In this document: positions 9,760 through 29,040 of the stretch, one piece after another
Layout of the letters: every line of letters begins with the position of its first letter
How positions within the stretch are numbered: the stretch's first letter is position 1
Program-made: the position numbers and the translations under genes
NCBI GenBank assembly: GCA_050287085.1
Contig: JBNKBE010000003.1
Coordinates: 15,252-79,251, forward strand
From: Polyangiaceae bacterium
GTDB lineage: Bacteria; Myxococcota_A; Polyangia; Polyangiales; Polyangiaceae
Direction of reading: 5' to 3'
Length of the DNA stretch: 64,000 nt
Notes under the pieces: model-generated
The model's database searches: none
What the model was told of the DNA's origin: nothing
What the model saw: the letters and a program-made list of their open reading frames with translations, nothing else

Positions 9760-10545
9760 GTGAAGCCCCTACTTTTTGGCCAGGCCGAAGCTCCGCTATT
9801 CGGCGTCTATCACCCCACGGGCTCGAGACGCCAACCCCGCTTGGGCGTGCTGCTTTGTTATCCCGGCCCGCGCGAATACAACTCTGCCCATTGGGCGTTT
9901 CGCAGGCTTGCCGGCTTGTTGAGCAAGGCCGGGCTCCCGACACTTCGCTTCGACTACCGCGGAACAGGTGACTCCGCGGGAGAGCTCGACCAGACCCGCA
10001 TAGCCGACTGGAGTGAGGACGTGGCTGTAGCCGCGCATGAGCTACGGGCTCAGTCCGGATGCCGTGAGCTCGCCATCGTTGCCATGCGCCTGGGCGCGCT
10101 CCCGGCCATGATGGCCTGCAACGCCGGACTGGGGCTCAACTCGCTTGTGCTCTGGCAGCCGGTCATGAGCGGCGAAGAGTACCTGTCTGAGCTTCGTCTG
10201 AGCCACGAGCGCCGGCGTATCGTACTCCTCCATGCCGCAAGAGAAGCCCATGGCGACCGTGAATTGCTCGGTTTCAACATGAGCGACGCCCAACGACAAG
10301 AATTGGCCGCACTGCGTGCTGAAGCGCATTGGCTGCGAAATGTTCCGCGCGTGACGATCGTTCATCCCCCAGCGAGTTTCGCCTTCTACCGTTATCTTGG
10401 AGCTGCCCCCCGCGAGGCCACCCAGCCCACGGTTATCGAGGTGACGGGAAGTGCCGCACCGAGGACGGAAAAGGCAATGCTCTCTAATGACGCCCTGGAG
10501 GCGATCGTCTCGGCCTTGCAGGCGGGAGGGCACTCCAATGACTGA
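9760..10545 (+). CDS. Alpha/beta-hydrolase-fold protein lacking the nucleophile Ser (exosortase-A-associated hydrolase 2-like)
   Basis: GTG 9760 VKPLLFG...LFGVYHP; LRFDYRGTGDS; nucleophile elbow reads AMRLGA; LVLWQPVMSG. Confidence 0.8.
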   Translation: MKPLLFGQAEAPLFGVYHPTGSRRQPRLGVLLCYPGPREYNSAHWAFRRLAGLLSKAGLPTLRFDYRGTGDSAGELDQTRIADWSEDVAVAAHELRAQSGCRELAIVAMRLGALPAMMACNAGLGLNSLVLWQPVMSGEEYLSELRLSHERRRIVLLHAAREAHGDRELLGFNMSDAQRQELAALRAEAHWLRNVPRVTIVHPPASFAFYRYLGAAPREATQPTVIEVTGSAAPRTEKAMLSNDALEAIVSALQAGGHSND

Positions 10546-11395
10546 GCAGGTGCTGGTGTTCGGAACCAGCAAGAACCTCGTGGGCCTCCTGACTCAACCT
10601 TCGGGCCAGAAAGAGTACCCCGTGGCCTTCGTCATGTGGAACGTGGGGATCAACCATCGCGTCGGCCCCTACCGCGTGTTCACCCAGTTGGCGCGTCGAT
10701 TGGCGTCTCTCGGCTTCACGGCCCTGCGCTTTGATGTATCGGGCCTTGGGGATAGCGAAGTGGCACGTAGCGACCGACGCCCGGAAGCCGAACGGCCTGC
10801 AGGGGACGTGCGCATGGCCTTCGACGCGATCGCGGCGCGCACCGGCATTGAGCGCTTTGTCGTCATCGGTTTCTGCTCCGGCGTCGACGCCGCCCACAAG
10901 CTAGCACTCGAAGATGAACGCGTGGTGGGAGCTGCCTTCCTGGAGGGATACGCGTTTCAAACACGGGGCTTTCGCATGAGGTACCCGAAGCGATTCTTCA
11001 ATCGACAGCGCTGGGAGCGCCGGCTGCGCATGCACTGGCCGCGCTTGTTCGGAGAGGTCCCCGGCTGGGAACAACAGCTCATGGCCCGCGAGTCCATCTA
11101 CGAGCGCAACTACCCGACCCCGGAAGAGTTCGGCCGCGAAGTTCGAACCATGGCCACTCGCGGCAAGCAGCTGCTCTTCGTGTACGTCGGAGGAGAATCC
11201 TCCTACGCCTATCGAGAGCAGTTGTTCGAGCATACGGGTCGTGGTGACTTCGAGCGTATGATTGATCTGGACTTCTTTGGGGATGCCGATCACACCTTTT
11301 TCTGTGAGGCGGATCGCAAGCGGATGGTGGAGCGCGTCTTGAGCTGGGCTCGGGAGCGCTTCAGCCTGGTGAGTCCCGCCTCCAGTGACGACTGA
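10538..11395 (+). CDS. Alpha/beta-hydrolase-fold protein with Cys elbow (exosortase-A-associated hydrolase 1-like)
   Basis: ATG 10538 overlaps the upstream stop; NVGINHRVGPYR, LRFDVSGLGDS, GFCSG elbow, ADHTF catalytic His. Confidence 0.85.
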   Translation: MTEQVLVFGTSKNLVGLLTQPSGQKEYPVAFVMWNVGINHRVGPYRVFTQLARRLASLGFTALRFDVSGLGDSEVARSDRRPEAERPAGDVRMAFDAIAARTGIERFVVIGFCSGVDAAHKLALEDERVVGAAFLEGYAFQTRGFRMRYPKRFFNRQRWERRLRMHWPRLFGEVPGWEQQLMARESIYERNYPTPEEFGREVRTMATRGKQLLFVYVGGESSYAYREQLFEHTGRGDFERMIDLDFFGDADHTFFCEADRKRMVERVLSWARERFSLVSPASSDD

Positions 11396-11468
11396 TGCCG
11401 GCCAACGATTCGTCTCGCTGGTCGCACGACATGACAGCCTGGATCCGTTCCGGGAGGAGAGCAGCTAG

Positions 11469-14400
11469 ATGCCGAATCTAAGTGAGGCCGAGCAACACCA
11501 TTTGGTTTTCGAGCTCAATCAGGGCGCAGACGACGGCGTTCCAAGCCGCACCATCGCCGAATTGTTCGCGGCTGAGCTGAGAGCCGGGCCCGAACGAATC
11601 GCTGTCGCGTGGCACGGTGGTAGCCTCAGCTACGCGGAGCTCGACGCAGCGAGCAGTCACCTTGCAGGGCGACTCAGCGACGCGGGTGCAAGCGAAGGCA
11701 AGGTGGTCGCGCTTTGCCTGGAACGAGGGCCGCTCGCCATCGTTGCGCTGCTGGCTACGGCGAAAGCCAGCGCCGCCTACATGCCGATTGAACCGACGTA
11801 TCCCGAAGATCGGATTCGTTTCATGCTCCAGGACGCAGCCCCCGTCGTGGTCCTGACGAGCACCGACTTGCGCTCGCAATTGCCCGGCGACTACGCCGGG
11901 ACGGTTTGGGAGCTACCGGCAACACCCGAGGTCGATGGCTCATCGCGACCAGCCCCGACGCAGCTCAACGGGCCCGAAAGCCCGGCGTACGTTATGTACA
12001 CCTCCGGCTCCACGGGCCAGCCGAAAGGTGTGGTGGTCCCTCAGCGCGCCATTGATCGCCTGGTGAAGCAGGCCCCCTTCGCCAAGCTCGACAGCGACAC
12101 ACGGATCCTGCAGGCGGCACCCATCGCATTCGACGCGTCAACCTTCGAGATCTGGGGCGCCCTCCTCAATGGCGGCACGGTCGTGCTCCACGACGAAGCA
12201 TTCCCGACGCCCGCTGGCCTCCGGCGCTCCATTCGGGAGCTGGGGGTCACCACCATGTGGCTGACGGCGGGTCTCTTCAACGCCGTCATAGATGAAGATC
12301 CACAGGCGCTCAGTGGCCTCTGCGAGCTGTTGACCGGAGGAGAAGCACTCAGCGTTCCACACGTCAGCAAGGCGCTGGCGGAACTACCCACGACGCAGCT
12401 GATCAACGGCTACGGCCCCACGGAAACGACAACGTTCGCGACTTGTTATCGCATTCCGCCAGACCGCGCACTGCCGCCCACCGGTGTGCCTATCGGCTAT
12501 GCCATCAGACAGACGCGGCTCTACGTGCTCGACGAAGAGCTACGCCCTGTTCGCGCGGGCGAGCTGGGCGAGCTCTACGTCGGCGGACGCGGCGTTTCGC
12601 TGGGTTACCTCAACCGAGACGACCTCACGGCGGAGCGCTTCTTCGATGACCCCTTCGTTGCTGGTGAGCGGCTCTACAAGACTGGCGATCAAGTCAGAAT
12701 GGACAACGATGGTCTGGTTCACTACGCAGGGCGGGCTGACCAACAGGTGAAAATTCGCGGCTTCCGAATCGAGCTCGGTGAGATCGAAGCCGCGCTGGTA
12801 GCTCGCCCTGGGGTGGCCCGAGCGGCCGTCAAGGTGATTGAGCAAGCCGGAAATAAGTCGCTGTGTGCGTACCTGGTGCCCGCCGACGGTCACCACAAGG
12901 ACGCGAAAGCGGTCATGGACGCGCTGCGGCAGTCGCTACCGGACTACATGGTCCCGTCGCGACACGTCTGGATCGACGAGATTCCGATCACGGCCAACGG
13001 CAAGACCAACTATGCCGCGCTGCCCGCTCCAGAACTTCAAGGAACTGAAGTACGCGGCGCTACTTCGGCGGCAGGCACCGCAGGCGCAATAGCGGCCGTC
13101 TTCGCCGAGCTGTTGGGCTTCGCTCAGGTCGACCCTGACGCCAACGTCTTCGATTTGGGGGCCAATTCGCTTCTCGTTGTGCGAGCGGTCACTCGCTTGC
13201 GAGATCGCGTTGGTATCGAGGTACCGGTCACAAAGGTCTTCCAGTATCCAACGCCGCGAACGCTGGGTGACTTCCTCGACGGGAACACGACGCAGAAGCG
13301 CAGCTCCACCAGGCAGCCAGCGCTGGCACAGCAGGATGGGCAGATCGCCATCATCGGTATCGCAGGTCGCTTTCCAGGCGCACTCAGCGTGGAGCAGCTC
13401 TGGGACAACCTCGTCGCCGGCAAGGACACCGTCGCCCATTTTGGACGCCATCAGCTGGATCCTTCTATTCCAGACGAGCTTGTCGCCGATCCACGCTACG
13501 TGCCCGCCCGCGGCGTCATTGACGAGCCTGAACACTTCGATGCTGCCTTCTTCGGCATCACGCCCAAAGAAGCCTTGCTCATGGATCCCCAGCAGCGCCT
13601 GCTCTTTGAGATTGCGTGGGAGGCTCTCGAATCATCCGGGTATGTTCCCGAAAAGTACCCTCGCCCAATAGGTGTCTTTGCAGGGAAATACAACGACACC
13701 TACTATGCCGAGCGTGTCCTCCAGTATCCTGAGCTGATCGCGGAACTCGGTGAGTTCCAGGTGATGGTCGCCAATGAGAAGGACTACGTCGCAACCCGAC
13801 TAGCCCATCGTCTGAATCTGCGTGGCCCCGCGGTGAGCGTGCATACCGCCTGCTCGACGTCGCTCGTGGCCATCACCATGGCCGTCTCGGCGCTCAGAGC
13901 CGGACAGTGCGGCATCGCCTTGGCGGGCGGCGCGTCGCTGACGGTCCCGATCAACAGCGGGCATCTCTACCAAGAGGGAGCGATGCTGTCTGCCGACGGC
14001 AAGACTCGCACTTTCGACCAAGACGCCAGCGGAACCGTCTTCAGCGACGGCGTCGCGATGGTAGTTCTGAAGCGACTCGGTGAAGCTGTGGCGGATGGCG
14101 ACACCATTTACGGGGTCATCCACGGCATCGGGCTGAATAACGACGGCGCCGACAAGGCGAGCTTCACAGCCCCAAGCATCGAGGGCCAAACAGACGTCAT
14201 CGCCATGGCCCAAGCCGATGCCGGATTGACGCCGGACGACATCGACTATGTCGAGACCCACGGCACCGCGACGCCTTTGGGCGATCCGATCGAGGTCGAA
14301 GCCTTGTCTCAGGCCTTCGCCGAACGCACGTCCGACCGTGGCCCAGTCCTGATCGGCTCTCTGAAGAGCAACATGGGGCATCTTGTCATCGCGGCCGGCG

Positions 14401-17400
14401 CCGCCGGCATGATCAAGACCGCCCTGGCCCTACAACGGGAGCTCATTCCGCCGAGTCTCCACTTCAAGAAGCTCAACCCGCGGATTCGTTTCAAGGAGGG
14501 AGCGTTTCGTGTCGTTGCGACCAGAACGCCGTGGCCGCGACGGTCGACCCCGCGCTTTGCCGGCATCAGCGCCTTCGGGGTGGGCGGTACCAACGCGCAT
14601 GTGGTGCTGGGCGAGCCACCACTAACAACGGCCACGGAGTCCACTCGCAGCAGCGAGCTACTGGTGTTGTCCGCTCGCTCCGATCAAGCACTGCAGCAGG
14701 CTTGTTCGCGCCTAGCCGACGCGCTGGACGCAAGCGAGCTGTGTCTGGCGGATGTAGCTCTGACCCTACACGCTGGACGGCGCGAGTTCCCGTTTCGACG
14801 CTACGTGGTCGCAGGCGATGGTCAAGAAGCGGCAAAGAAGCTGCGACAAGCGCAGGTCGTCAAGCGCACGCCCGGCGGTGCGCCCTCGGTGTTGTTCATG
14901 TTTCCCGGCCAAGGAAGTCAGCACCTCGGCATGGGAGCTCAATTGTACAGCGAATCGAGCACCTTTCGTGGCCATGTCGATCACTGCCTGACGCTCCTGG
15001 ACCCGGCGACCGCGACCCGGCTGCGAGAGCTCGTGTTCACGCCCTCGCCCGACGACGCCGCCGCTGCCGAACTGAACCAGACTTCATTGGCGCAGCCGGC
15101 GCTCTTCATCATGGAGTACGCAGTCGCGCAGTTGTGGTTGGAGCTCGGACTGAAGCCGCGGGCTCTCATCGGGCACAGCGTTGGAGAGTTCGTTGCCGCC
15201 GTCATCGCAGGCGTCATGACCCTCGAAGACGCCGTAGTCCTGGTCGCCGAACGAGGCGCGCGAATGCAGGCCCAACCCCCAGGGGGCATGCTTTCCGTAC
15301 GCCTACCGGCGTCGGCAGTCGAAGCGCGACTCACCGGCGACCTGGCGCTCGCGGCAGACAACTCGCCGCGCCTTTCGGTCGTGGCGGGTCCAAACGATCA
15401 AATCGACGCTTTCGCGGCCCTATTGGAGCGCGAGGGAGAATTGGCGAAACGTCTTCACACGTCACACGCTTTTCACTCGTCGATGATGCAACCCGTCGTC
15501 GAACCATTTCAGACGCGACTGCAGGCGCTCTCGCTCCGCCGGCCGCAGATTCCGATCATCTCCACGGTAACCGGACAGCTCATGAGCGACGAGGAAGCGA
15601 CCAGCCCGGCGTACTGGGCGGATCAGTTGCGCCTCGCCGTACGCTTCGGTCCCGCCGTCGCCGAAGCTCAGGTGCGGTATGACGCGCCATTGCTGCTCGA
15701 GGTCGGTCCTCGGCGAAGCCTGGCAACCTTGGCTCGGCAGCAAAACAGCAGCGGTACCAAGATCAATGCGGCCAGTTCACTGGGCGACAACAGCACAACC
15801 AACGGCAGCGCCTTCCGTGAAGCCTGTGGGGTGTTGTGGACTCAAGGCGTCAAGCTCGACCCGGAATCACTACACGCTCCCGCCCGTCGCATCCCGCTTC
15901 CCACCTATCCGTTTGAACGCCGCTTGTTTACCCTCCCGGCTCGGAGCCCCAGCCCGCCGCGTTCTCCCCTCCAAGACGCCGCAGCTCCCATAGAAAGCGG
16001 ACACGGTCAAACCTTCACCCCCGAAGTCGAGCCTTCCACCCCCAATAAGGACCGCCCTACCAAGATGAATGCCGCCGATCCACGCCACGACCAGACCCTG
16101 ACTACGCTCTGTGAGATTCTGGAGGAGACATCGGGTATCGATGTGACGCCGGACGACGCGGACGCACCGTTTCTCGAATTGGGACTGGATTCGCTCTTCT
16201 TGACCCAGTTTGCGATCACTGTGCAGCGCAAGTTTGACGTCGATGTCACCTTTCGCAAGTTGCAGGAAGACTGCCCCACCATGGCCACCCTTGCAGACTT
16301 GATCGTGGCAGAGCTGCCGCCGATGGCCGTGCGGACGCCCCCTATCTCGGAAGCCGCCGTCGCCCAGCCCAAAGCTCCAGCGCCCGGCCCCATCGCGGCC
16401 CCCGAAGTTCCCGCTGCCCAAGTTCTAGCCGCCCAAGTTCCAGCTCCGGCGTTCATGGCACCGACCACGCCGTCGCCACTGCCCACGACAAGCGCTGCGG
16501 TCAATACCGGGGTGCTTGGACTGATCGAACAACAGCTGCAACTGACAGCGCAACTGCTCAGAGCCGTTTCGGGCGGACAAGCGCAGGCAGTACCGGTCCC
16601 TGCCGCGACCGTCGCCGCACCGGTTCCCCAACCCCTACCTCAAACCCAGGCCCCAGCACCCACCCCGGCCTTGCCGCCCCAGCGCGAACTGCTTGACGCC
16701 CCCGAGGGCCCGCCCCTGAGCACCCGCTCCGTTCGACGCTCCGATGGGGTTGGCGCAAACGATCTGGAGGCCCCCCCAAGCACGCGCAGCGCTCGCACCA
16801 TGATGAAGTACGACGTCAAGAAGGCGTTTGGTGCCATTGCGCGCATTCACACGGCGGGCGACGATATCGCCCCGCAGCAGCGAGCCAAACTGGACGCCTT
16901 CATTCGCCGATACACCGAGCGCACGGCAGGGTCGAAGAAGTTCGCGCAGGACAACCGCGAACAAATGGCCGATCCACGAGTGGTCACAGGCTTCAAGCCG
17001 ACCACCAAGGAACTTGTTTACCCGATAGTAGTAGAGCGTTCGAAAGGCGCCCATCTTTGGGACGTCGACGGCAACCGCTACGTGGATGCTCTCAACGGTT
17101 TTGGCCTGAGCCTTTTTGGGTGGCAGCCGGACTTCGTCACGAAGGCCATCGAAGAACAGCTGCATCGTGGGCACGAAATTGGCCCGCAGCACCCACTGTC
17201 CGGCGAAACCGCATCACTGCTGTGCCAGCTAACAGGATTCGATCGCGCCGCGTTCTGCAATACCGGCTCGGAAGCGGTAATGGGCTGTACCCGAGTTGCC
17301 CGCACCGTAACCGGACGCAAGACCATCGCGCTCTTCACTGGCGCCTACCATGGTATCTTCGACGAGGTGCTCGTGCGGGGCACCAAGAAGCTGCGTTCAA

Positions 17401-18365: not shown

Positions 18366-18433
18366 ATGAACAAGCACGACGGCCGGCGCGCTCTTGCTTC
18401 TGTAAGCGAAAGCGACGCGAAGGACTGCTACCG

Positions 18434-19321
18434 GTGAGAGGGCACCTGCTCGTGGCGGCGGCCGGCCTCAGCTTGCTCGCATTGGCCGCCTCCGGGCTGG
18501 TTGGGTGGCGCGCCTTCCGAGCCGAGTACAACTGCTTTCATCCTCGCCCTCGCCCTGAGCCTGCCCTCGTCGATTACTTTGCCCCGGAGCTGAAGGTTGA
18601 GAACGCCGTCTTCTCGGACGCTCGCGAGCCGGTATTGACGGGCTGGTACCGAGCCTCCACCAATGGAAGGTGTGTGATTCTTGCACACGGCTCGCTGGGC
18701 GACAGAGCCTCGCTCGCCGCCGAAACCCGTTTGCTAGCGCAGGCCGGCTTCGGCGTCGCGACGCTGGATCTACCTGGCCATGGTAGCAGCCACGGCAAGG
18801 TAGAGTGGGGCCAGGCGGAGCGGAACGCTCTCTCGACCGCATTGCGTTTCGTTCTTGCGCAACAACCAGAGCTGCAGGTGGGGGTGCTGGGCTTCTCAAT
18901 GGGGGGCCACATCGCCATTCAATGGGCCGCTCGAGAGTCGCGTGTTCAAGCGATTGCTGTGATGGGTACCCCGCCCGACCCCACAGAGTTCACGCGTTAC
19001 GAATACCGCCGATTCGGACCGCTCACACAGTGGCCAGCGTTCGCCGGCATATACCTGGGTGGCATGGACTTAGGAGAGCCAACCCCCCTGCAGCTCGCGG
19101 CGAGCTTGGCGCCACGCCCACTGCTGGTCATCATGGGCGAGCAAGATCCGCACTTGCCAGCCACGATGGCCCGGAAGCTATTCGATGCGGCGCTCCAGCC
19201 CAAACAATGGTTCGTCGTGCCAAAAGCGGGCCACGGCCGCTACGCGGACGCCGCCCCAAGCCAGTTCAAGGCAGCGCTGATATCGTTCTTCAGCGCCAGC
19301 CTCTCGCCTCGCTCCGAGTGA
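18434..19321 (+). CDS. Alpha/beta hydrolase with N-terminal membrane anchor or signal and canonical triad
   Basis: Hydrophobic N-terminus; LAHG, DLPGHGSS, GFSMGG, GEQD, AGH. Confidence 0.88.
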   Translation: MRGHLLVAAAGLSLLALAASGLVGWRAFRAEYNCFHPRPRPEPALVDYFAPELKVENAVFSDAREPVLTGWYRASTNGRCVILAHGSLGDRASLAAETRLLAQAGFGVATLDLPGHGSSHGKVEWGQAERNALSTALRFVLAQQPELQVGVLGFSMGGHIAIQWAARESRVQAIAVMGTPPDPTEFTRYEYRRFGPLTQWPAFAGIYLGGMDLGEPTPLQLAASLAPRPLLVIMGEQDPHLPATMARKLFDAALQPKQWFVVPKAGHGRYADAAPSQFKAALISFFSASLSPRSE

Positions 19322-19340: not shown

Positions 19341-22300
19341 TTAGGGACGACTCAAGAAGCCTTTCACTCGGCCCTTCACCTTGCGCAGGAGACGGTCGCG
19401 CAGACCACCTTTCGCGTCGCCTTCCCGTACCTCAGGTATGGGGCCGGTGCCGGTCTTGACGGCCGCGGAGTCCATGTCCTTGGCCACAGGCTCGTCGACG
19501 CTTGTCGCGCCGCCATCGCGAGCAGACGAGCCGCTAGCCAGCTCGGGCTTCTGACGTTCAAGCTCGGCGGCCACTTGCTCCAAACTGCTCAGCAGTACTA
19601 CTCGCGGGCTTAGTCGAACGCCTGTTTCGCGTTCCAGCTCGGTCAACAAGCGGAAGCACAGCAGCGAATGGCCTCCCAGATCGAAGAAGTTGTCGTGGAT
19701 ACTCACGTCGGAGCGCTTCAACGCGTCGGCGAACAACCGCCCCAGCAAGCGCTCCGTGGAGCTACGAGGTGGCGTGAACTCGGGACCCGCATCGACTTCA
19801 AAGGGCGACGGCAGCTCGACATCCGGTACTCCTGAGAGTGCCAGTTGCTCCACGAATTCGACAGGAACCAATGCCTCCGGCGCCGCCTTGCGAACGTACT
19901 GCCGCAGCTCCGTCTCGGTGTAGCTCTTGCCAGCCTCAGGTTCTACATACGCCACGAGGCGCCCCACGCCCAGCTCGTCGGAGACCACGCAGCACCGGCA
20001 CGCGTGTACACTCGGGTGGGCACGAAGAGCCTCCGCAACTGCGGACAAGTCGGTCCAGAAGCCGTTGACACAAGACAACTCTTCGGGCCACGTGCCGAAG
20101 ATCTCGCCCCGTCGATTGCAGTATGCGGGCGGAGGGTCGCTGGGCGGCATCGCGCCCAAATCGGTCTCGTTGATAGGAAGCCAGCGACCGTCGAGCCACG
20201 CGACAAGTTGTCCGCGAACGCCACTCGGAACATCGTGGCCAGCAGGATCGACAATCCGCAGCGAGGTCCGTCCCAGGGGACGACCTAGCTCTGGCACCAA
20301 GAAACCCGGACGCACCTCGGAGAGCAACAAGGCGCGGCCGCCCAGACGCGTCGTCGCCTGCAGCACCAGGGGACCTAGCTGCCTCAACCGACGGCCAAGT
20401 GCATCCGATGACGGTTCAAGGATGAGCGCGGCCCCCAAGCGCGCCAGCGCTGCCTTCTCTTCGAGCGCGGCTCCAAGACAAGCCTCCGGGGCAAGGGCAA
20501 GCGCCGCCCCACCCGCCAGCAGCGTTGCTATCGCATCCTCGGTTGGAACGTCAGCGCCTGCAAGCAAGAGCGTGGCTCCCGCCGCCAGTGGAGTCAGAAG
20601 CTCCAGCAACAGTGTGTCCGAGCCGGGAGCGGCTGCAGCCGCACAGCGGTGCTCCCCTCCCAACTTGGCCGCAAATGCCAGTGCGCGCAGCTGAGCGCTG
20701 AGCTCCGCCTGACTTAAGCCCTGCCGCTGGCCCTTCCCCCTCACAGGCAACAGCCCGGCCCTACCCTGTAGCGCCGGCGGCGCCCCGCTCGCTCCGCCCG
20801 AGAGACTCACGCAGCGTCCGATACCCCAGTCCCGTAGTCGCGCCTGCGCGTCGTCAACAGCCGCGTCGTCAGCGCTCGCGTCGACAACAGCCACAACCCC
20901 CTCGAAGTCACGAACCTGGCGCTCCGTACGGGCGCTGCTGTCCTCTGGATCCACCGAAAGAACCCGCAGCCCTGCCCGAAATCCCGCAACCAATGCTGCC
21001 ACCAAAGCCGTCGAGCGGGGCAACGCCACGACCACCCCATCCCCTTCGCCTGCGTGCTCGCGGAGCTTCGCGGCGAGAGCACAGGCCTGTCGCATGAGCT
21101 CTTCGTAGCTGAGCGTCGCTCCTGCGCACTCAACAGCGACAGCCTGTGGGCTCTGCGCCGCAACAAGCTGATGGACGTATTGCTCGGCGGTCACCGAAGG
21201 CGGAGCGTCTTGCACCTCGCCCTGAACCAAACGCAGCTCCTGCAGTTTCCGCTCGGGGTCATCAGCCGCATCTTCCAACAGGCAAACAAAGCTCTCCAGC
21301 AAAGAGGCGATCGTGGACTCCTCGAATAGCTCCGAACTGTAGTTCGCCACCGCCACCAGCGAGTCGACCCGTTCCATCAACCACACCATCAGGTCGTTGG
21401 CGGCCTTGGGCGGCTCGACGTCTACCTGGGAGACAAGCGCAGTTCCGATACGTTGCGCGCGCGCTCTGGCGTCTTGAAATGAGAAAAACGCACGGACCGG
21501 GGGTGGCTCGATCCCAAGGCGTTCGAGCGGCATTTCTTCGCGGCTGAACGCGTCCAGGGTCACATCTCGAACGTGCTTGATGTGCTCTGCAAAGGTCAGT
21601 TCGGGGTCGACTGAAATGCGCAGCACAACGGCATTGATGAACGGTCCGAGGAGACCCTCGACCTCCGGCAAGACACGCGCTCTTACGGGCGTACCGATTA
21701 GGATGTCCCGCTGCCCCGAGAAGCGATGAAGCAAGACTGAATACGCGGCACACAATACAGTAAACAGCGTCCCACCGTGGCGCTGCCCGAGCTCCTTGAG
21801 CTTCGAAACCGCCTCAGCCGACATGGACCGCTTGAGATTGCCACCCAGATACTGCGTCTCAGCGGGCCTCGGATGGTCGTGCGGAAGCGTCAGCTCGGAC
21901 GGTGCGTTTTGCAGCTTCTGCTGCCACCAGGCAACCTGCTCGGCGATCTCTTCGCTGTCCAGCCACGTCGCTTGCCAACGAGAAAAATCCGCATATGTGA
22001 CCGGAAGCGCTGGCAACTCGGGCGCTCTTTGTGCTGCAAGCGCACTGTAAACCTCGCACAGCTCATTGAGAAAGAGATCGAAGGACCAGCCATCCCAGAT
22101 GATGTTGTGACGCAGCGTATAGTACAGGTAGTCTTCGTCACCGAGGCGAAATAGCGTGGAGTGGAAGAGCGGGCCTTCAGCCAGGTCGAAGGGTATCGTG
22201 TTGCGCTCCTGAATTTGCAACAACGCCGCCTCCTCTCGTTCCCCCGCAGGTAGCGCCCTCAAATCGACCGCAGCAATGGGCAGATTAACTGTCTTGGCAA

Positions 22301-25300
22301 TGCGCTGAACCGTTGTTGCACCCGAGCCCGTGGCGCCTTCGCCCTCGGAAGAAGCCCCCGAGCTCACGTCGGCATACCCCACCGTCATGCGCAGCAACGC
22401 GTGGCGAGAAACCAACACGTCGAGCGAGCGCTGCAGGAGCTCCAGGTCGATGGGGCCGCGAAAACGCCACGCCGCTGGCAAGTTGTGCACGATACGCTGC
22501 GCCGGATGCATCTCCTCGAGCAAGAAGAGCCGCTGCTGCACTACTGAAAGCGGCGCTGGTTCAGACTCGTCACCCTTGACGATGGGAGGTCGTGCTGCCG
22601 TCGGCGGCGCGTCGCTGCGTGCGACGGCCAGCTTCGCCGCCAAGCGACGCACGGTAGGCGCCTCGAAGAAATCCCGAAACGACAAATGCAAGTCGTGCTC
22701 TTGGCGCAACCGGGCCACTACCTGGGCCGCCAAGAGCGAATGCCCGCCGAGCGCGAAGAAGTCGTCCTCAACACTGACACGCCCGACTCCCAGCACCTTT
22801 GCCCACAGCTCAGCGATGGTCGTTTCCAACTCACCGCTGGGCGCGACGAAAGCTCCGGCTCCCGACGCCATTGACGCTTCAGTCGGCGGGGGCAGCGCCT
22901 TGCGATTGATCTTGCCGCTTGGCGTGAGCGGCATCTCAGCCAACACGACAAAGGCGCTGGGAATCATGTACTCTGGCAGGCGCTGGCCAAGATGGGCGCG
23001 CAGCTCTGCAGGCTCCGGTGCTGGCGCAAGCGTCGACACATAACCCACGAGACGCTTGTCCCCTGGGCGGTCCTCGCGCAGCACCACCGCGGCTTCGCGT
23101 ACAACGCCGTGACTGCGCAGGCCCTCTTCGATTTCTCCCAGCTCGATCCGAAACCCTCTCAGCTTGACCTGATAGTCGTTCCGCCCCAGACACTCGATCT
23201 CACCGTTGGCCACGAATCGTCCGAGGTCGCCGGTACGGTACATCTGGCAGCCAGGTCTAAACGGGTCGGAAACGAAGCGCTCCGCGCTAAGCTCGGGCCG
23301 TCCAAGATAGCCCAATGTTACGCCGTCGCCACCAATGAAGAGCTCGCCCACGGCCCCCGGGGGCACGCGTTGTCCCGCTTCGTCCAGGATATAGATCCAG
23401 GTATTATCCACCGGAGTTCCGATCAACACCCGCTCTGCGTTCTGCGGCACTTGCCAGAAAGAGGACCACACGGTCGTCTCAGTTGGGCCGTAGCCGTTGT
23501 ACACAGCGGCCGCTCGCTGCGTTAGGTCGCAAGCGAGATCGCGCGGCATGGCTTCGCCGGTGCAGATCAAACGAAGCGACGAACTACCCTCCCAACCCGC
23601 CGCCAGCAACAGACGGTAGGTCGCGGGCGTAGCATCGACGAAGGTAATGCCGCGTTGCTCGATAACGTCTCTGAGCACGGCACCGTCGGAAGCCTGCTCC
23701 CGAGTAACCAGCTCGATGCGCGCGCCCACGCTGAGCGGCAGCCACAGCTCAGAGACGGCAATGTCGAAAGACAAGGTCGTGATCGCCAACACGACGTCGC
23801 TCTCCGTCAGACCAGGTCTGCGCGCCACACTACACAGCAAATTGACAGCCGCGCGGTGGGGAACGAGTACGCCCTTTGGCTTGCCCGTCGACCCGGACGT
23901 ATAGATCACATAGGCAACGCTCTCGGGCGTCGCTCTTCCGGTCGCAAGCTCGTCATCTGCAGCAGCTGCATCATCCAGCTCGCTCGCGTCGACCGCGACC
24001 ACGGAAGCCACCGGCAGCGCCAGCGATTCGGCCAACTCGCGGCTGGTCACGAGCACGCCCAGTGCGGCGTCTTGCACCATGAAGACTAGACGGTCCGGTG
24101 GATAGTCAGGATCGAGCGGGACATACGCGCCTCCGGCCATATGAGTAGCCAAGAGACTCACCACCAACGCCGGCTTACGCTCAAGACAGAGCCCGACGAG
24201 CACCCCCTCGCGAACGCCGACGGCGCGAAGCCGTTGCGCCAGGCTTCGCGCTTGCGCCACTAGCTCACCATAGCGCAACACCTCATCGCCACAGCTGAGC
24301 GCAACCGCATCCGGCCTAATGGACGCCTGGCGCAATACCAAGTCGTGCATGCAAGCGTCCCGCGGGAAGTCCACTTCGCGGCCACTCCATCGCTCGAGAA
24401 GCGCCGCGTCCTCCGCGGTCAGCAGGTTCAAGTGCGACACGAGGCGCTCCGAGTTGCCGACAAAATCCTCGAGCAGCGTTCGGTAGCCCGCGAGCCAACG
24501 GCGGACCGTGATCTCGTCGAAGAGCTGGGTGCTGTATTGGCATTCGAGCGTCACTCTCCCGTCCAGCTCCACCGCGTTGAGAAACAGGTCGAAATTCTCG
24601 AAATGACGTGGATTGGTCCGCAGCTCGGTCTCTAGGTCGTCAAAGCCGATAGCCTCCCCCGAGAGGCCCCGGTCCAAGTTGAAGACAATATTGACCAGCG
24701 GCGGCCGGCTGGGTTCGCGGGGCACGGGCAACTTGGCCAACAGTTGCCCATAGGTAAACCCCTGGTGGTCTTGCGCATCGAGCAGCGACGTTCTCACACG
24801 TTCCAACGCGGAGCCAAAGGACTCTTCAGGGTCCCAAGTCGTTCTGATCGGCAGAAGGTTAACACAGTGACCCACTAGCGAGTGCAGCCCCGAAACCGAT
24901 TGTCCTGCGGTGGGAATGCCCACAACGATGTCATTGGCACCTGACAAGCGATGCACCACCGCACCAAACCCAGCAAACAAGGTCGCAAACAGGCTAGCTC
25001 GATGTTTGGCCCCGGCTTTTCTCAGTGCGGAGACCAACTCCGAGGGCAACTCAACGTCTAGACGCCGAGAGTCGTAGCGCCTTTGCGGCGGTCGCGGACG
25101 ATCGAGCGGCAGATCAACAATCGGAATGCCATCACCGAATAGTGATATCCAGTAGGCTTCGTCCTTCGCTTCCGTGCCGGCCCCCAGGGCCCGACTCAGC
25201 GCGTAGTTCTGCCAGGAGTCCGCCGCTGGAAGCTCGGGTTCAAGCTCGAACTGCCGAGCGTTGTAGTAGGTCGCCCAGTCCTGAACAATAACGGCCGTCG

Positions 25301-25787
25301 ACCAACCGTCACACACGATATGGTGTGCCGTGAAGACCAGGAAATGCTCGTCACTGGCGAGCTTGAGCAAGTCAGCCCGAAAGAGAGGCCCCTGCTCGAG
25401 GTCGAATGGCTCCTCGACAACCGCAGATAGCCATTGCTGCACTCGTGCGTCGCGAGCCTCAGACTCGAGGTCCGTCAGATCGAGGGTGCGGAGCGCGGGC
25501 TCCAGGGCCGCCACGATACACAGCGAGAGGCCGTCCTGAGTCACCGTTGAGCGCAAGGCCGCATGGCGCTGCACCACGTCGGCCAGTGCTCTGCGCAGAG
25601 GCGCCTCGCGCAGCGGGCCACGCAAGACAAGTGTTACAGACTCGTTGTAAGCCAGGGACGCGGCGCGGTCGACTTGACACGCGGTCCAGATCTCTCGCTG
25701 GGGCGCGGTCGTGGGGACCAGCTCCTCGATTTCAGGTCCCGCAAAAGGATCAAAGTCAACGCTATCTGGAGGGTGAGATACGGTCAT
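19341..25787 (-). CDS. NRPS: C-A-PCP-C(atypical)-A(degenerate)-PCP, no thioesterase
   Basis: C1 HHIVCDG; A1 YTSGSTGKPKG, YGPTETT, YRTGD, SGK; PCP LGGHSL; C2 RHNIIWDG; A2 lacks core motifs; terminal PCP FFDLGGHSL. Start 25787 or 25808. Confidence 0.95.
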   Translation of the reverse strand: MTVSHPPDSVDFDPFAGPEIEELVPTTAPQREIWTACQVDRAASLAYNESVTLVLRGPLREAPLRRALADVVQRHAALRSTVTQDGLSLCIVAALEPALRTLDLTDLESEARDARVQQWLSAVVEEPFDLEQGPLFRADLLKLASDEHFLVFTAHHIVCDGWSTAVIVQDWATYYNARQFELEPELPAADSWQNYALSRALGAGTEAKDEAYWISLFGDGIPIVDLPLDRPRPPQRRYDSRRLDVELPSELVSALRKAGAKHRASLFATLFAGFGAVVHRLSGANDIVVGIPTAGQSVSGLHSLVGHCVNLLPIRTTWDPEESFGSALERVRTSLLDAQDHQGFTYGQLLAKLPVPREPSRPPLVNIVFNLDRGLSGEAIGFDDLETELRTNPRHFENFDLFLNAVELDGRVTLECQYSTQLFDEITVRRWLAGYRTLLEDFVGNSERLVSHLNLLTAEDAALLERWSGREVDFPRDACMHDLVLRQASIRPDAVALSCGDEVLRYGELVAQARSLAQRLRAVGVREGVLVGLCLERKPALVVSLLATHMAGGAYVPLDPDYPPDRLVFMVQDAALGVLVTSRELAESLALPVASVVAVDASELDDAAAADDELATGRATPESVAYVIYTSGSTGKPKGVLVPHRAAVNLLCSVARRPGLTESDVVLAITTLSFDIAVSELWLPLSVGARIELVTREQASDGAVLRDVIEQRGITFVDATPATYRLLLAAGWEGSSSLRLICTGEAMPRDLACDLTQRAAAVYNGYGPTETTVWSSFWQVPQNAERVLIGTPVDNTWIYILDEAGQRVPPGAVGELFIGGDGVTLGYLGRPELSAERFVSDPFRPGCQMYRTGDLGRFVANGEIECLGRNDYQVKLRGFRIELGEIEEGLRSHGVVREAAVVLREDRPGDKRLVGYVSTLAPAPEPAELRAHLGQRLPEYMIPSAFVVLAEMPLTPSGKINRKALPPPTEASMASGAGAFVAPSGELETTIAELWAKVLGVGRVSVEDDFFALGGHSLLAAQVVARLRQEHDLHLSFRDFFEAPTVRRLAAKLAVARSDAPPTAARPPIVKGDESEPAPLSVVQQRLFLLEEMHPAQRIVHNLPAAWRFRGPIDLELLQRSLDVLVSRHALLRMTVGYADVSSGASSEGEGATGSGATTVQRIAKTVNLPIAAVDLRALPAGEREEAALLQIQERNTIPFDLAEGPLFHSTLFRLGDEDYLYYTLRHNIIWDGWSFDLFLNELCEVYSALAAQRAPELPALPVTYADFSRWQATWLDSEEIAEQVAWWQQKLQNAPSELTLPHDHPRPAETQYLGGNLKRSMSAEAVSKLKELGQRHGGTLFTVLCAAYSVLLHRFSGQRDILIGTPVRARVLPEVEGLLGPFINAVVLRISVDPELTFAEHIKHVRDVTLDAFSREEMPLERLGIEPPPVRAFFSFQDARARAQRIGTALVSQVDVEPPKAANDLMVWLMERVDSLVAVANYSSELFEESTIASLLESFVCLLEDAADDPERKLQELRLVQGEVQDAPPSVTAEQYVHQLVAAQSPQAVAVECAGATLSYEELMRQACALAAKLREHAGEGDGVVVALPRSTALVAALVAGFRAGLRVLSVDPEDSSARTERQVRDFEGVVAVVDASADDAAVDDAQARLRDWGIGRCVSLSGGASGAPPALQGRAGLLPVRGKGQRQGLSQAELSAQLRALAFAAKLGGEHRCAAAAAPGSDTLLLELLTPLAAGATLLLAGADVPTEDAIATLLAGGAALALAPEACLGAALEEKAALARLGAALILEPSSDALGRRLRQLGPLVLQATTRLGGRALLLSEVRPGFLVPELGRPLGRTSLRIVDPAGHDVPSGVRGQLVAWLDGRWLPINETDLGAMPPSDPPPAYCNRRGEIFGTWPEELSCVNGFWTDLSAVAEALRAHPSVHACRCCVVSDELGVGRLVAYVEPEAGKSYTETELRQYVRKAAPEALVPVEFVEQLALSGVPDVELPSPFEVDAGPEFTPPRSSTERLLGRLFADALKRSDVSIHDNFFDLGGHSLLCFRLLTELERETGVRLSPRVVLLSSLEQVAAELERQKPELASGSSARDGGATSVDEPVAKDMDSAAVKTGTGPIPEVREGDAKGGLRDRLLRKVKGRVKGFLSRP

Positions 25788-25977
25788 GAATGGAACTCGA
25801 TGGGGCATGACGCCGTGTCCACCGCCCCCCGCGGACGACGCGATCTTTGGGCGCCGGGAAGGCGATGGCTGTGCAAAAGGCGGGTATGTTGGCGGACCTC
25901 ACTTACGACCGCCCCGCGCGTTGGGCTGCCGCGTTGGCATCAGTACACGCCGAGGTCGCGTGCGCTGAAGAAAGCGT

Positions 25978-26892
25978 CTAGGAAAAAAGATGTGGCGCGT
26001 ACGCCGCCGTAGGTGGGTCAATCGACCTTCCCACGAGCTTCTTGAGCCGCATTTTTCCGCCCGACAGTGCCGTCATGGCGGTCGACATAAGCTGATCACG
26101 CCACACGGTCTCACCGATCGGGGGCGGCGTCAGCCCCAGCCGCCGAAGTTTGAAGTTGGCCTGGTAGGCGGCCCTACGCCGACGTGTCGAGTCGGTGTAG
26201 AAGGTGAAGCTCATCGTGACCGACGGGCCATCGCCGTTTTCGACCATGTGCGGACTTGTGCTCGGCATGAAAGCCCCTTGTCCCGGCTCGAGGTCGAAAA
26301 CCATGGCTCGCTCTTTCATCCGCTCCGCAAAGGTCACGAGATCTCGCGAGTGCCAGCCGTGGAAGCGTTCCAACGCGGCTTCCGAAACGACCTCTCGGTC
26401 CATGGGGTCCCAAATGTAGACACGTTTGCGGCCCTGAAGCTGAACCAAGAAATTGTGTTCGGCGTCGATGTGATAGGGTGTGATGGCGCCCGGCGAGGTG
26501 ATGAAGATCCACCCACCCCGGTAGGACATACCGGGATCGGTGACGTCTACGAGGGGCTTGACGCTGTCGAGCACCTCATCGACAAGTGTGCGGTACACCG
26601 GGTCGGTCTGGACGTTCAGGAGCGACATCCAAGCTTGGGCCGCGGCCACGTCGGCAAGCATGTCACTGGCGCTCTTCTTCGTAGGATGAATCTTCGGCGC
26701 ATCGTGAAACGATGTACCAGCCTCGGCGGCCGCTGAATGGCTCCGCACCTGGTTCTGCGCGTCCAATCGGCTACCCAGTTCACGAAGCTTATCGAGCTGC
26801 AAGAGTGGGTGCTCACAGAGGTCGTGAGTCACAGGGGTTACTACCCACGGTTCAAAGCGGCTGTTCGGGAGTTTTATTCGCGGCGTCGTCAT
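25978..26892 (-). CDS. Cupin-like/JmjC-type Fe(II)/2-oxoglutarate oxygenase family protein
   Basis: FITSPGAITPYHIDAEHNFLVQLQGRK (HxD) and PHMVEN (distal His). Start at MTTPRIKL. Confidence 0.8.
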   Translation of the reverse strand: MTTPRIKLPNSRFEPWVVTPVTHDLCEHPLLQLDKLRELGSRLDAQNQVRSHSAAAEAGTSFHDAPKIHPTKKSASDMLADVAAAQAWMSLLNVQTDPVYRTLVDEVLDSVKPLVDVTDPGMSYRGGWIFITSPGAITPYHIDAEHNFLVQLQGRKRVYIWDPMDREVVSEAALERFHGWHSRDLVTFAERMKERAMVFDLEPGQGAFMPSTSPHMVENGDGPSVTMSFTFYTDSTRRRRAAYQANFKLRRLGLTPPPIGETVWRDQLMSTAMTALSGGKMRLKKLVGRSIDPPTAAYAPHLFS

Positions 26893-27022
26893 GGTCACCC
26901 CATCGCTCGAGTGAGGCACAGGGTTGCCCGAGCCCGCGGCCGCGTCAAGAGGAGTTATCCCCGCCGTCGATCCGCAAACAGACTCCGCTGCAGGATCTAA
27001 CCGTGTTAGTCTCGGTCGAGAA

Positions 27023-27823
27023 ATGTTTTCGCGATTGCAGACTCTTCCCGGCGTAAAGCAAGTCATCAAGGCACGCTTCAACCGCGGGTTCGAAGGCGAC
27101 TGGGCCGGCAGCTTCCGTGGCGTCTTCAGTACCTTCGAGCAAGCGTCTCTCAGTGCGCCAGGCACCAAACCGCTCGGCTACAACCATGACGCCGCCAGCG
27201 AAATGTATGCGGAGCGCCTGCGAGAAGTAGTGGCGAGCGACTACCCCGTCATGTTTTGGCTGGGCAAGTTGATGGCCGGCGGCGCCCGGAACCTCTTCGA
27301 CCTCGGCGGACACGTCGGACTGGCCTGTCACGCCTACCAGCGCTACCTCGACTTCCCGGACGACTTCAGCTGGACGGTCTATGATGTCCCCGCGGTTCGC
27401 GCCACGGGCGAACGCCTCGCCGGGGAGCTGAGTTCGCGCATTTCGCCGCGGTTCACGGGCGACACGGCAGACGGCGCTGGCGTGGATGTCTTGCTCAGTG
27501 CTGGCGCCCTACAATACATCGACGAACCCCGTTTCGACGCGTATCTGGCGTCTTTGAAGCGGCTTCCTCGCAACATTCTTCTCAGCAAAATACCCCTTGG
27601 ACACAATCCAGAGTTCGTAACACTGCAGAATATTGGCACAGCCTATTGCCCCTACCGCATCTTCAACGACCACGAGTTCGTCGCAGGGCTGAAGCGCCTA
27701 GGTTACGAGGTACGTGACCGTTGGTTGAATGCTGAGGGCTGCAACATGGCGCTCAACCCCGAGCTCAGCGTGCCCAACTACACCGGCATGCTGCTGCAGC
27801 TGCCAATCGCATCGACGAGCTAG
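27023..27823 (+). CDS. Putative SAM-dependent methyltransferase (TIGR04325-like)
   Basis: FRGVFSTFEQA, DYPVMFWL, LFDLGGHVG motif I, WTVYDVP, SAGALQYI, FVTLQ. Confidence 0.8.
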   Translation: MFSRLQTLPGVKQVIKARFNRGFEGDWAGSFRGVFSTFEQASLSAPGTKPLGYNHDAASEMYAERLREVVASDYPVMFWLGKLMAGGARNLFDLGGHVGLACHAYQRYLDFPDDFSWTVYDVPAVRATGERLAGELSSRISPRFTGDTADGAGVDVLLSAGALQYIDEPRFDAYLASLKRLPRNILLSKIPLGHNPEFVTLQNIGTAYCPYRIFNDHEFVAGLKRLGYEVRDRWLNAEGCNMALNPELSVPNYTGMLLQLPIASTS

Positions 27824-27920
27824 GCTCGACGGGCTGGGCTCGACGGGCTGGGCTCGACGGGCTGGGCTCGACGGGCTAGGCTCGACGGGCTGGGCTCGAC
27901 GGGCTAGGCTCGACGGGCTG
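27823..27920. repeat. Tandem repeat, 7 x 14 bp GGCTCGACGGGCT(G/A)
   Basis: Seven contiguous copies counted directly, plus a degenerate copy at 27809-27822 overlapping the methyltransferase stop codon. Confidence 0.95.
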
Positions 27921-28092
27921 GGGGCTCTAGCCCGGTACCTGATCGGGATGCAGCTGGGTGCATCAGCGTCATCACCGGGTAAACGGCTGCCAGCAAGCAG
28001 ACGCAGAACAGAACTGCGCCTCATCATCTACGCGCTCTGCGCGACAATCGCTCACGGAGCTTGGAAGCCACAAACGCGGCCGGGAATAATCC

Positions 28093-29040
28093 ATGAAACA
28101 AGCCTACCTTGGAGACGAACGACTGAGCGTCATAGGACTGGGAGCGATGCCGCTAGCGATCGCGGGCCGCCCCTCGGAAGCGGACGCACGAAACGTCATC
28201 AGCGCCGCTTTGGACGCGCAGATGACCTGGATCGACGTGGCCGACTCCTACTGCCTCGATCAAGACGACACGGGTTATGGCGAGCAGCTCGTCGCTCGAG
28301 CGCTGCGGGACTACGGCACGAGCAAACGGGTGCTCATCGCGACCAAGGCAGGGTACGTTCGCCCCGGCGGCAACTGGGAGCTCTGCGGACGCCCGGAACA
28401 CCTGCGCGCCGCGTGCGAACGCAGTCTACGCACGCTCGGGTTGGAAGCGCTGCCGCTATTTCAGCTCCACGGGGTGGACCCCAAAGTCTATTACCCGGAT
28501 TCCGTGGGGGCGCTGGCAGATCTCCAGCGCGAAGGCAAAGTCATCCACATCGGGCTATGCAACGTAGACGTGGGTCATCTGGAGGATGCTCGCAAGATCA
28601 TCCGCGTCGCCACGGTGCAAAATCGATGCAACATCCACGAGCGCTGGTGCTTCGAGAACGGTGTGGTGCCGTGGTGTGAACAACACGGCGCCCTGTTCAT
28701 CGCCCACAGCACCATGGGGGGACACCAGGGACACAAGCGCACCGCCAGCAGCGTCACCCTCGCCAATGTCGCCGCCCGACACGAGGTATCGCCCTACCAG
28801 ATCGCGCTTGCGTGGCTATTGCGCCAATCCCCCGCGCTGCTCGCCATCCCGGGAGCAAGTCGTCCAGAGAGCGCAATCTCCAGCGCGGCAGCCGCCGAAC
28901 TGAAGCTCACCACTGCAGACCTTGAAGAACTCGCGAGCGAGTTTCCTCCGCCGCGGCGCCTGGTCAAGGAACTCAAGCGCGTCAAACAGATCGCGAAAGC
29001 CACCCTGCGCCGGCTCAAGGACGCTCGCCGCAGACTCTAG
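28093..29040 (+). CDS. Aldo/keto reductase
   Basis: IGLGAM, IDVADSY, IATKAG, LFQLH, HIGLCN, VQNRCN, IPGAS. Confidence 0.92.
   Translation: MKQAYLGDERLSVIGLGAMPLAIAGRPSEADARNVISAALDAQMTWIDVADSYCLDQDDTGYGEQLVARALRDYGTSKRVLIATKAGYVRPGGNWELCGRPEHLRAACERSLRTLGLEALPLFQLHGVDPKVYYPDSVGALADLQREGKVIHIGLCNVDVGHLEDARKIIRVATVQNRCNIHERWCFENGVVPWCEQHGALFIAHSTMGGHQGHKRTASSVTLANVAARHEVSPYQIALAWLLRQSPALLAIPGASRPESAISSAAAAELKLTTADLEELASEFPPPRRLVKELKRVKQIAKATLRRLKDARRRL

What the first reader, a model, noticed from the sequence alone, without database searches (positions are those of the whole stretch)
9760..29040. Thioesterase-less NRPS/PKS-aminotransferase cluster with a hydrolase pair: candidate uncharacterised pathway, possibly transferring its product onto an acceptor
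Seen: A-PCP-KS-AT-ACP-aminotransferase, a convergent C-A-PCP-C*-A*-PCP, three alpha/beta-fold proteins, a cupin oxygenase, a methyltransferase and an aldo-keto reductase. No TE or reductase release domain and no exporter is visible. Known: in-line aminotransferases (MycA, McyE) convert beta-keto thioesters to amines, and hydrolase 1/2 pairs and TIGR04325-like methyltransferases are usually met near polysaccharide/exosortase loci. Inference: the line makes a short aminated peptide-ketide that is offloaded in trans, perhaps onto a surface glycan or lipid rather than released as a diffusible metabolite. I do not recognise a characterised product for this architecture.
Basis: partly seen in the sequence, partly recalled or inferred. 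Interest (0 to 1): 0.85.

Follow-up and report, generated by a model that had tools for sequence, protein, structure and literature searches.

The report
Peptide-polyketide line with detached release enzymes
A myxobacterium carries a small, intact peptide-polyketide assembly line with no built-in release enzyme but a separate two-protein unloading pair; in many relatives the same genes sit inside the slime (exopolysaccharide) gene cluster, so it probably attaches a small diamino-acid peptide to a surface sugar polymer, which is untested.

Summary
Observation confirmed. The locus encodes A-T-KS-AT-ACP-aminotransferase, a convergent C-A-T-C*-A*-T, three alpha/beta-fold proteins, a JmjC cupin, a TIGR04325 methyltransferase and an aldo-keto reductase. 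It is one copy of a widespread cassette for which my searches found no characterisation; this scan has already reported it several times on other DNA. The hydrolase pair looks like a detached thioesterase: hyd1 has invariant Cys and His, hyd2 has Arg at the nucleophile site, and they model as a heterodimer (0.86, best control 0.00). Of 50 genomes, the 22 with a hyd1 homologue all have TE-less lines; 27 of the other 28 carry a TE. Twelve of 25 TE-less cassettes lie within 30 kb of Wzx or a priming glycosyltransferase (1.3 expected), and 6 of the 10 closest relatives lie beside myxobacterial eps-type genes. This copy has no glycan neighbours; a matching eps locus is on another contig. The last module keeps a His-to-Asn C domain and its carrier while its A domain has decayed. 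Best reading (0.55): a valine-derived 3,4-diaminoacyl-amino acid is grafted onto the exopolysaccharide repeat unit. Main rival (0.27): a diffusible metabolite. No product or acceptor is shown.

The parts
9760..10545 (+). hyd2: alpha/beta-fold pseudo-hydrolase (Arg110 at the nucleophile position); predicted partner of hyd1
   Evidence: TIGR03101 84 bits, under cut-off; Arg110 invariant in 23 of 23 aligned; modelled heterodimer
10538..11395 (+). hyd1: alpha/beta hydrolase with Cys113 in G-F-C-S-G, Glu136, His252; inferred trans-acting release/transfer enzyme
   Evidence: TIGR03100 77 bits, under cut-off; Cys113 and His252 invariant in 25 of 25; alpha/beta-hydrolase fold, pLDDT 87.8
11469..18365 (+). 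Hybrid A-T-KS-AT-ACP-aminotransferase, 2298 aa; A1 code DAFWLGGTFK (Val type, assignment recalled)
18434..19321 (+). Third alpha/beta hydrolase (GFSMGG serine, N-terminal hydrophobic anchor); conserved beside the cassette in Polyangiaceae-type loci
19341..25787 (-). NRPS C-A-T-C*-A*-T, 2148 aa, no TE; A2 code DISDITGVWK (small residue, unassigned)
22089..22112 (-). C2 active-site motif HNIIWDG (His to Asn); domain conserved like C1
   Evidence: H-(N/S)-x-x-W-D-G in 8 of 8 family NRPSs; 46% mean identity vs 48% for C1
19839..21191 (-). Decayed third adenylation domain (approximate limits)
   Evidence: core motifs lost; 24.5% mean identity, 7 of 450 columns invariant
19653..19676 (-). Terminal carrier T3 with intact phosphopantetheine serine motif
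   Evidence: serine kept in 8 of 8; 50% mean identity
25978..26892 (-). JmjC/cupin oxygenase (H-I-D...H metal motif)
   Evidence: Cupin_8; weak match to JMJD5 structures; cluster seen in 17 of the loci clustered
27023..27823 (+). TIGR04325-family putative methyltransferase, divergent from the cupin
   Evidence: 179 bits vs cut-off 80; cluster seen in 14 of the loci clustered; atlas agrees
28093..29040 (+). Aldo-keto reductase; peripheral, membership uncertain
   Evidence: singleton; one 48% match inside the linked EPS locus of G041

Best explanation
The cassette builds a short aminated peptide-ketide and transfers it onto the cell's Wzx/Wzy exopolysaccharide. Steps: (1) a phosphopantetheinyl transferase encoded elsewhere (G000:C17) primes the four carriers [inferred]. 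(2) A1 loads valine; KS-AT adds malonate; there is no KR or DH; the in-line aminotransferase turns the beta-keto thioester into an amine, giving 3,4-diamino-5-methylhexanoyl-ACP [domains and catalytic residues shown; chemistry by analogy with MycA; valine from a recalled code]. (3) C1-A2-T2 adds one small residue [domains shown; substrate unassigned]. (4) The conserved C*(HN)-A*-T module adds no residue of its own and serves as a relay or docking platform that hands the chain on [inferred]. (5) The hyd1/hyd2 heterodimer takes the chain as a Cys113 thioester, in place of a TE, and passes it to a hydroxyl or amine of the lipid-linked repeat unit, or of a sugar precursor, in the cytoplasm before Wzx flipping [trans release well supported; acceptor inferred]. 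(6) The cupin and methyltransferase tailor chain or sugar; the anchored serine hydrolase trims outside the cytoplasm [speculative]. In this genome the likely partner is the eps-type locus on contig C10.
For: hyd1 homologue in 22 of 50 genomes, all with TE-less lines; 27 of the other 28 have a TE. The label needs at least 5 changes on the aminotransferase tree of 54 rows, 3 of them forced by well-supported branches (quick tree). Cys113/His252 invariant 25 of 25; hyd2 Arg110 23 of 23; pair fused in L075. Complex score 0.86, best of 3 controls 0.00, runs agree in at least 84% of contacts, partner pLDDT at least 80; the mark was reached by 116 of 157 solved and 2 of 215 mismatched pairs. 12 of 25 TE-less cassettes lie within 30 kb of Wzx or a priming glycosyltransferase vs 1.3 expected; in 7 of the 12 it is the only priming transferase found in the genome. 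6 of the 10 closest hyd1 relatives have eps-type genes in the fetched DNA; the closest, G223, has the same order hyd2-hyd1-PKS-hydrolase directly after Wzy_EPS-like and EpsB-like genes. Genes flanking the cassette in relatives have their best G000 matches on C10 and C5, up to 81% identity. It is the only NRPS or modular PKS among 4,598 called proteins, and no exporter is adjacent. A1 codes vary widely across the family, as expected of a variable surface epitope (inference).
Against: This copy has no glycan gene in the window and neither marker on its 384-kb contig. 13 of 25 TE-less cassettes, including all Comamonadaceae-type ones, and 4 of the 10 closest relatives show no such linkage. Kin are not independent, so the enrichment is overstated. 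Best matches to C10 are expected anyway if that is the genome's main EPS locus. In 2 of the 22 genomes the hyd1 match is on another contig than the line. An RND pump lies beside 5 loci. A Variovorax plasmid copy has no annotated hydrolase pair within 15 kb. Structure searches return only ordinary esterases and give no sign of transferase activity. hyd1 and hyd2 are paralogues, so the modelled dimer could echo a homodimer of the fold. No product, acceptor or expression is shown.
Confidence: 0.55

Rival explanations
1. The line makes a free, diffusible small metabolite (a linear or cyclised diamino-acyl peptide, perhaps glycosylated and exported through the Wzx pathway or an RND pump), and hyd1/hyd2 is simply a stand-alone thioesterase.
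For: 13 of 25 cassettes and this copy are unlinked to Wzx or priming transferase. An RND pump lies beside 5 loci. Carenaemin needs both an aminotransferase-bearing PKS-NRPS and a distant Wzy locus yet is diffusible (PMC8313283). 25 of 43 in-line TEs of the family are ordinary Ser type.
Against: Repeated placement inside polysaccharide loci in Xanthomonadales, Myxococcota and Alphaproteobacteria; no exporter, resistance or regulator gene in this cluster; hydrolase pairs also occur in polysaccharide loci with no NRPS nearby (L119, L120).
Confidence: 0.27
2. The chain is transferred in trans, but to a lipid, lipopolysaccharide or surface protein rather than to the exopolysaccharide.
For: Trans release is supported independently of the acceptor; a membrane-anchored hydrolase travels with the cassette; related hydrolase families are named for exosortase loci.
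Against: The linked genes are Wzx/Wzy/Wza/Wzc polymer genes, similar to myxobacterial EpsB, EpsV, EpsY and Wzy_EPS; no lipid or protein-sorting gene recurs in the clusters.
Confidence: 0.1
3. This copy is an orphaned relic that lost its glycan partner and is decaying; the dead last module marks the decay.
For: No adjacent glycan genes; 15 of 17 same-genus genomes lack a close aminotransferase match; C2 and A3 are non-canonical.
Against: All ORFs and other catalytic motifs are intact; the same C*-A*-T pattern is shared by 8 of 8 family NRPSs, with C2 and T3 as conserved as active domains; a matching PPTase and EPS locus remain in the genome.
Confidence: 0.08

Closest known systems
MycA (mycosubtilin) PKS-aminotransferase-NRPS
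   Same: In-line Aminotran_3 domain after KS-AT-ACP that aminates a beta-ketothioester before an NRPS module (PMC3870968, passages).
   Different: Starter here is an amino acid loaded by an A domain, not a fatty acid; only one further active module; no TE; no lipopeptide cycle.
Carenaemin (cpl cluster plus Wzy-dependent locus, Collimonas arenae Cal35)
   Same: PKS-NRPS with KS/AT and aminotransferase whose output depends on an unlinked Wzx/Wzy locus; the authors propose attachment to a repeat-unit sugar (PMC8313283; passages and first part of the discussion).
   Different: Different architecture (three A domains, PUFA-type genes, thioesterase, pyruvyl transferase); product is diffusible; sequence relationship to this locus was not tested.
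Exosortase A-associated hydrolase 1 / hydrolase 2 (TIGR03100 / TIGR03101)
   Same: Best NCBIfam matches of hyd1 and hyd2; tandem pair; polysaccharide-locus context in relatives.
   Different: Scores under half the cut-offs; coupled to a megasynthase; no exosortase in the window.
Glycopeptide X domain
   Same: Terminal C-like domain with altered HHxxxDG motif, kept while its module's A domain decayed; acts as a recruitment platform (PMC8949500, passages).
   Different: Here the motif is HNxxWDG, a carrier follows instead of a TE, and there is no P450; the platform role is inferred only.
Dlt system (D-alanylation of teichoic acids) and PhaC-type Cys transacylases (both recalled)
   Same: Thiotemplated building block moved onto a surface polymer (Dlt); alpha/beta-fold enzyme with a G-x-C-x-G nucleophile acting as a transferase (PhaC).
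   Different: Dlt moves one amino acid by an MBOAT route; neither is a sequence or fold neighbour.

Membership tests
MycA-type PKS-aminotransferase hybrid | KS-AT-ACP followed in cis by an Aminotran_3 domain with PLP lysine, then a C domain | tested here: met
   (the C domain is on the partner protein)
MycA-type PKS-aminotransferase hybrid | Fatty-acyl starter and TE-released cyclic lipopeptide | tested here: not met
   A domain starter (TIGR01733 414 bits vs cut-off 317); no TE
TIGR03100 hydrolase 1 | Score at or over 168.45 bits | tested here: not met
   77.4 bits
TIGR03101 hydrolase 2 | Score at or over 202.75 bits | tested here: not met
   84.4 bits
TIGR03100/03101 | Located in an exosortase A / PEP-CTERM locus | tested here: not met
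   no such gene among the 30 window ORFs scanned; the rest of the genome was not searched for exosortase
TIGR04325 methyltransferase | Score at or over 80 bits | tested here: met
   179.3 bits
Trans-acting thioesterase/transacylase | alpha/beta fold with nucleophile-acid-His triad, replacing an in-line TE | tested here: met
Trans-acting thioesterase/transacylase | Acts on the carrier-bound chain and transfers it to an acceptor | not testable with these tools
   needs biochemistry
Glycopeptide X domain | Inactive C-like domain between last T and TE that recruits P450s | tested here: not met
   no TE or P450 in the cluster; altered motif and conservation are shown
Carenaemin cpl system | cplA-E architecture with pyruvyl transferase and thioesterase | tested here: not met
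   gene list
Glycan-decorating assembly line (proposed) | Cassette inside or beside a Wzx/Wzy locus | tested here: inconclusive
   not met for this copy; met for 12 of 25 homologues and 6 of the 10 closest

The most novel reading that the evidence does not exclude
A cross-phylum class of NRPS-PKS megasynthases exists to decorate Wzx/Wzy exopolysaccharides with variable beta,gamma-diamino-acyl peptides, using a Cys-hydrolase/pseudo-hydrolase heterodimer as a peptidyl-to-glycan transferase and, in Polyangiaceae, a silent C(HN)-A*-T relay module; here it would act in trans on the myxobacterial eps-type polymer encoded on another contig.
Probability: 0.45. Interest if true: 0.88.

Novelty: new variant of a known kind. 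Interest (0 to 1): 0.66.

Why it matters
If true, a large class of clusters that genome miners count as orphan antibiotics would instead make surface-polymer decorations, which would explain why no free product has turned up. It would add a new release chemistry (a Cys enzyme with a dead partner in place of a TE) and an optional, variable modification of myxobacterial-type exopolysaccharide, a polymer tied to motility and biofilms (recalled). The idea is directly testable in cultured carriers. The family-level idea is not new to this scan; what this locus adds is the modelled heterodimer, the repeated TE/pair swap, the conserved silent module and the trans arrangement.

Tried and rejected
Literature: no paper describing this cassette in searches (0 papers each; 5 listed, unrelated; 2 listed, incidental mentions; no hit for the A2 code; 1, unrelated; 1, general). 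One search found carenaemin; one search found the X-domain review. The library lacks most subscription papers, MIBiG and antiSMASH were not available, and no supplements were read, so a described product could have been missed. Expression: no RNA holder listed; not evidence either way. Promoter and terminator scans were at chance level (2 vs 2.7; 15 vs 15.3). Island at tRNA-Ala: the cluster lies on the 5' side of the tRNA, no duplicated tRNA end was found on the contig, and GC matches the flanks; rejected. Solved-structure searches gave only generic esterases for hyd1, nothing useful for the methyltransferase and weak JMJD5 matches for the cupin. A formyltransferase start was considered: this PKS begins directly with A, and the roughly 200-aa N-terminal extension of 4 homologues had no Pfam match. 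A monobactam-like route (Cys TE acting on a diaminopropionate; recalled) was set aside because the cluster has no diaminopropionate or sulfotransferase genes. The deacetylases common in other loci have no close match in G000, although 3 PF01522 genes lie on other contigs, so an amide-on-glucosamine model is not favoured here. The careful tree did not finish; the quick tree is cited. Gene calls in scripts come from my own simple codon-bias caller and missed some genes (for example most of the G223 NRPS at a contig end).
Full report
Observation. Pfam gives A-T-KS-AT-T-Aminotran_3 for 11469-18365(+) and two C, two A and two T stretches for the convergent NRPS, with no TE or reductase. KS, AT, aminotransferase, A1, A2, C1 and all four carrier serines keep their motifs. 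C2 reads HNIIWDG and A3 has lost its core motifs. The methyltransferase is a true TIGR04325 member; the two tandem hydrolases only resemble TIGR03101 and TIGR03100, at under half the cut-offs. The host is an unnamed 6.2-Mb genome; its relatives include a Polyangiaceae record (G203 has the same hyd1 coordinates as G058, locus L043), so I read it as a Polyangiaceae-type myxobacterium. This cassette is the only NRPS or modular PKS among 4,598 proteins called by my script.

Distribution. Five of 40 relatives have a strong match to the aminotransferase region, 2 of 17 in the same genus. Recurrent neighbours among those 80 loci plus 8 stretches from relatives and the window were PPTase (26 loci), the hydrolase pair (21), cupin (17), TIGR04325 (14), GT2 (13), deacetylase (10), GT4 (7), priming transferase (7) and Wzx; 175 singleton proteins were not annotated. 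Earlier notes of this scan describe the same family on other DNA; I used them as leads only.

The hydrolase pair replaces the TE. The 22 with a match all have TE-less lines; 27 of the 28 without have a TE domain or TE gene; the last (L057) shows no NRPS module. In 2 of the 22 the match is on another contig. Two same-genus genomes with Cys-type TE lines have no hyd1 even by profile. On a quick tree of 54 aminotransferase domains the label needs at least 5 changes, 3 forced by well-supported branches, so the swap happened more than once. hyd1 has invariant Cys113 and His252 (25 of 25) and a mostly conserved acid; hyd2 has invariant Arg at the nucleophile site (23 of 23) and no conserved His. They are fused in L075. 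The modelled complex scores 0.86 against a best control of 0.00; runs agree in at least 84% of contacts, partner pLDDT is at least 80, and the mark was reached by 116 of 157 solved and 2 of 215 mismatched pairs. The interface includes many of the conserved residues of both proteins. This supports binding but does not show it, and since the two are paralogues the model may echo a homodimer of the fold. Of 43 in-line TE regions in the family, 18 have Cys and 25 Ser at the nucleophile position (5 of the 18 read by eye from the printed sequence).

Link to polysaccharide genes. For 25 TE-less cassettes (the 22 above plus G021, G024, G034) I compared the aminotransferase position with all PF01943 and PF02397 matches. 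Twelve lie within 30 kb, against 1.3 expected from copy number and genome size; 200,000 simulations reached at most 8. In 7 of the 12 the adjacent priming transferase is the only one found in the genome. Thirteen are unlinked, including all Comamonadaceae-type loci; some sit on short contigs. Kin are not independent, so the contrast is overstated. Within the family, 39 of 150 genomes have a hyd1 match. Of the 10 closest, 6 show eps-type genes in the fetched DNA and 4 do not; over all 16 newly fetched family genomes the count is 7 of 16, by BLAST label. G223, the closest, has hyd2-hyd1-PKS-hydrolase in the window's order directly after genes resembling Wzy_EPS and EpsB (both under the equivalog cut-offs).

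This copy. No glycan gene lies in the window and neither marker lies on contig C3. The genome has a full Wzx/Wza/Wzy/Wzc-type locus on C10, resembling EpsY, EpsV and Wzy_EPS, a priming transferase and an EpsA-like gene on C5, and a PPTase on C17. Genes that flank or interleave the cassette in G184, G221, G227, G119, G192, G041 and G058 have their best G000 matches there; the acyl-carrier block at the end of the C10 locus is 41-81% identical to blocks beside the cassette genes in G184 and G221. This fits a system split over several places, but best matches to the main EPS locus are expected in any case.

The silent last module. In 8 of 8 family NRPSs aligned, C2 reads H-(N/S)-x-x-W-D-G and T3 keeps its serine. 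Mean pairwise identity is 48% for C1, 54% for A2, 46% for C2, 50% for T3 and 24.5% for A3. C2 and T3 are therefore maintained while A3 decays. Other lineages keep HH with an intact Gly-type A3, or keep HH with no A3 at all. The pattern recalls the glycopeptide X domain (PMC8949500, passages). I read it as a relay or docking module; loading of T3 by A2 is an untested alternative.

Product. The A1 code is of the valine type (assignment recalled). With malonyl extension, no reduction and MycA-like transamination (PMC3870968, passages) the ketide is 3,4-diamino-5-methylhexanoyl. The A2 code keeps the Trp of glycine-type pockets but differs at three positions; it recurs in 6 family members and in L025, L036 and G034 and is unassigned. 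A1 codes vary widely across the family. hyd1 and hyd2 have no hydrophobic segment, so transfer would be cytoplasmic; the third hydrolase has an N-terminal anchor.

Comparison and verdict. The chemistry works like MycA, but the system is not a lipopeptide line. The pair is a sister of, not a member of, TIGR03100/03101. Carenaemin (PMC8313283; outline, passages and the first part of the discussion read) is the nearest experimental precedent found for an aminotransferase PKS-NRPS that depends on a distant Wzy locus; its product is diffusible, which keeps the main rival alive. Eight literature searches found no description of this cassette; MIBiG and supplements were not seen. Glycan decoration 0.55, free metabolite 0.27, other acceptor 0.10, relic 0.08. 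Novelty: new variant of a known kind, with a 0.45 chance of a new class. Interest 0.66.

Noticed in passing
window 9144-9217 (-): tRNA-Ala(CGC) 543 bp upstream of hyd2; cluster lies on its 5' side and no duplicated end was found.
   Followed up: yes
window 27812-27922 and 29058-29208: Two intergenic tandem arrays (14 bp x 7.9; 15 bp x 10.1) bracket the aldo-keto reductase; the first has no copy elsewhere in the genome, the second a weak one on C13.
   Followed up: partly
L158 (G000:C10:78000-97999): eps-type Wzx/Wzy locus ending in a second carrier system: AMP ligase, SDR, ACP-sized protein and two hexapeptide acetyltransferases; same block beside cassette genes in G184 and G221.
   Followed up: partly
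L119:8532-10020 and L120:12842-14547: Hydrolase pairs inside polysaccharide loci with no NRPS in the fetched 20 kb (Lautropia-type genome G056), also under the TIGR cut-offs.
   Followed up: partly
L075:11652-13499: hyd2-hyd1 fused into one 615-aa protein in a planctomycete.
   Followed up: yes
L020:2-1906 and L018: Same-genus genomes carry a different line ending in C-T-TE with a Cys nucleophile; in G016 the aminotransferase lacks its PLP lysine and part of the domain.
   Followed up: partly
L057: Pedobacter copy with A-T-KS-AT-T-aminotransferase followed directly by PPTase and GT2 genes, with no NRPS module in view.
   Followed up: no
L026:4334-5233, L025, L038, L016: Roughly 200-aa N-terminal extension before A1 in many homologues, with no Pfam match; absent from the window's protein.
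   Followed up: partly
L022:9347-17281: In G041 the PKS is rearranged into separate ACP-aminotransferase, A-T-KS-AT(part) and AT genes; the NRPS is convergent as in the window.
   Followed up: no
L161:7888-25790: Variovorax plasmid copy with oxygenase, PKS, NRPS and two TIGR04325 genes next to IS66 and an RND system; no annotated hydrolase pair.
   Followed up: no
window 31780-40655, 59039-63931: Unrelated neighbours: GH67 glycoside hydrolase, a 1,970-aa kinase-AAA-GAF-Hpt-HATPase sensor, and a DUF4215-repeat/PA14 protein.
   Followed up: no
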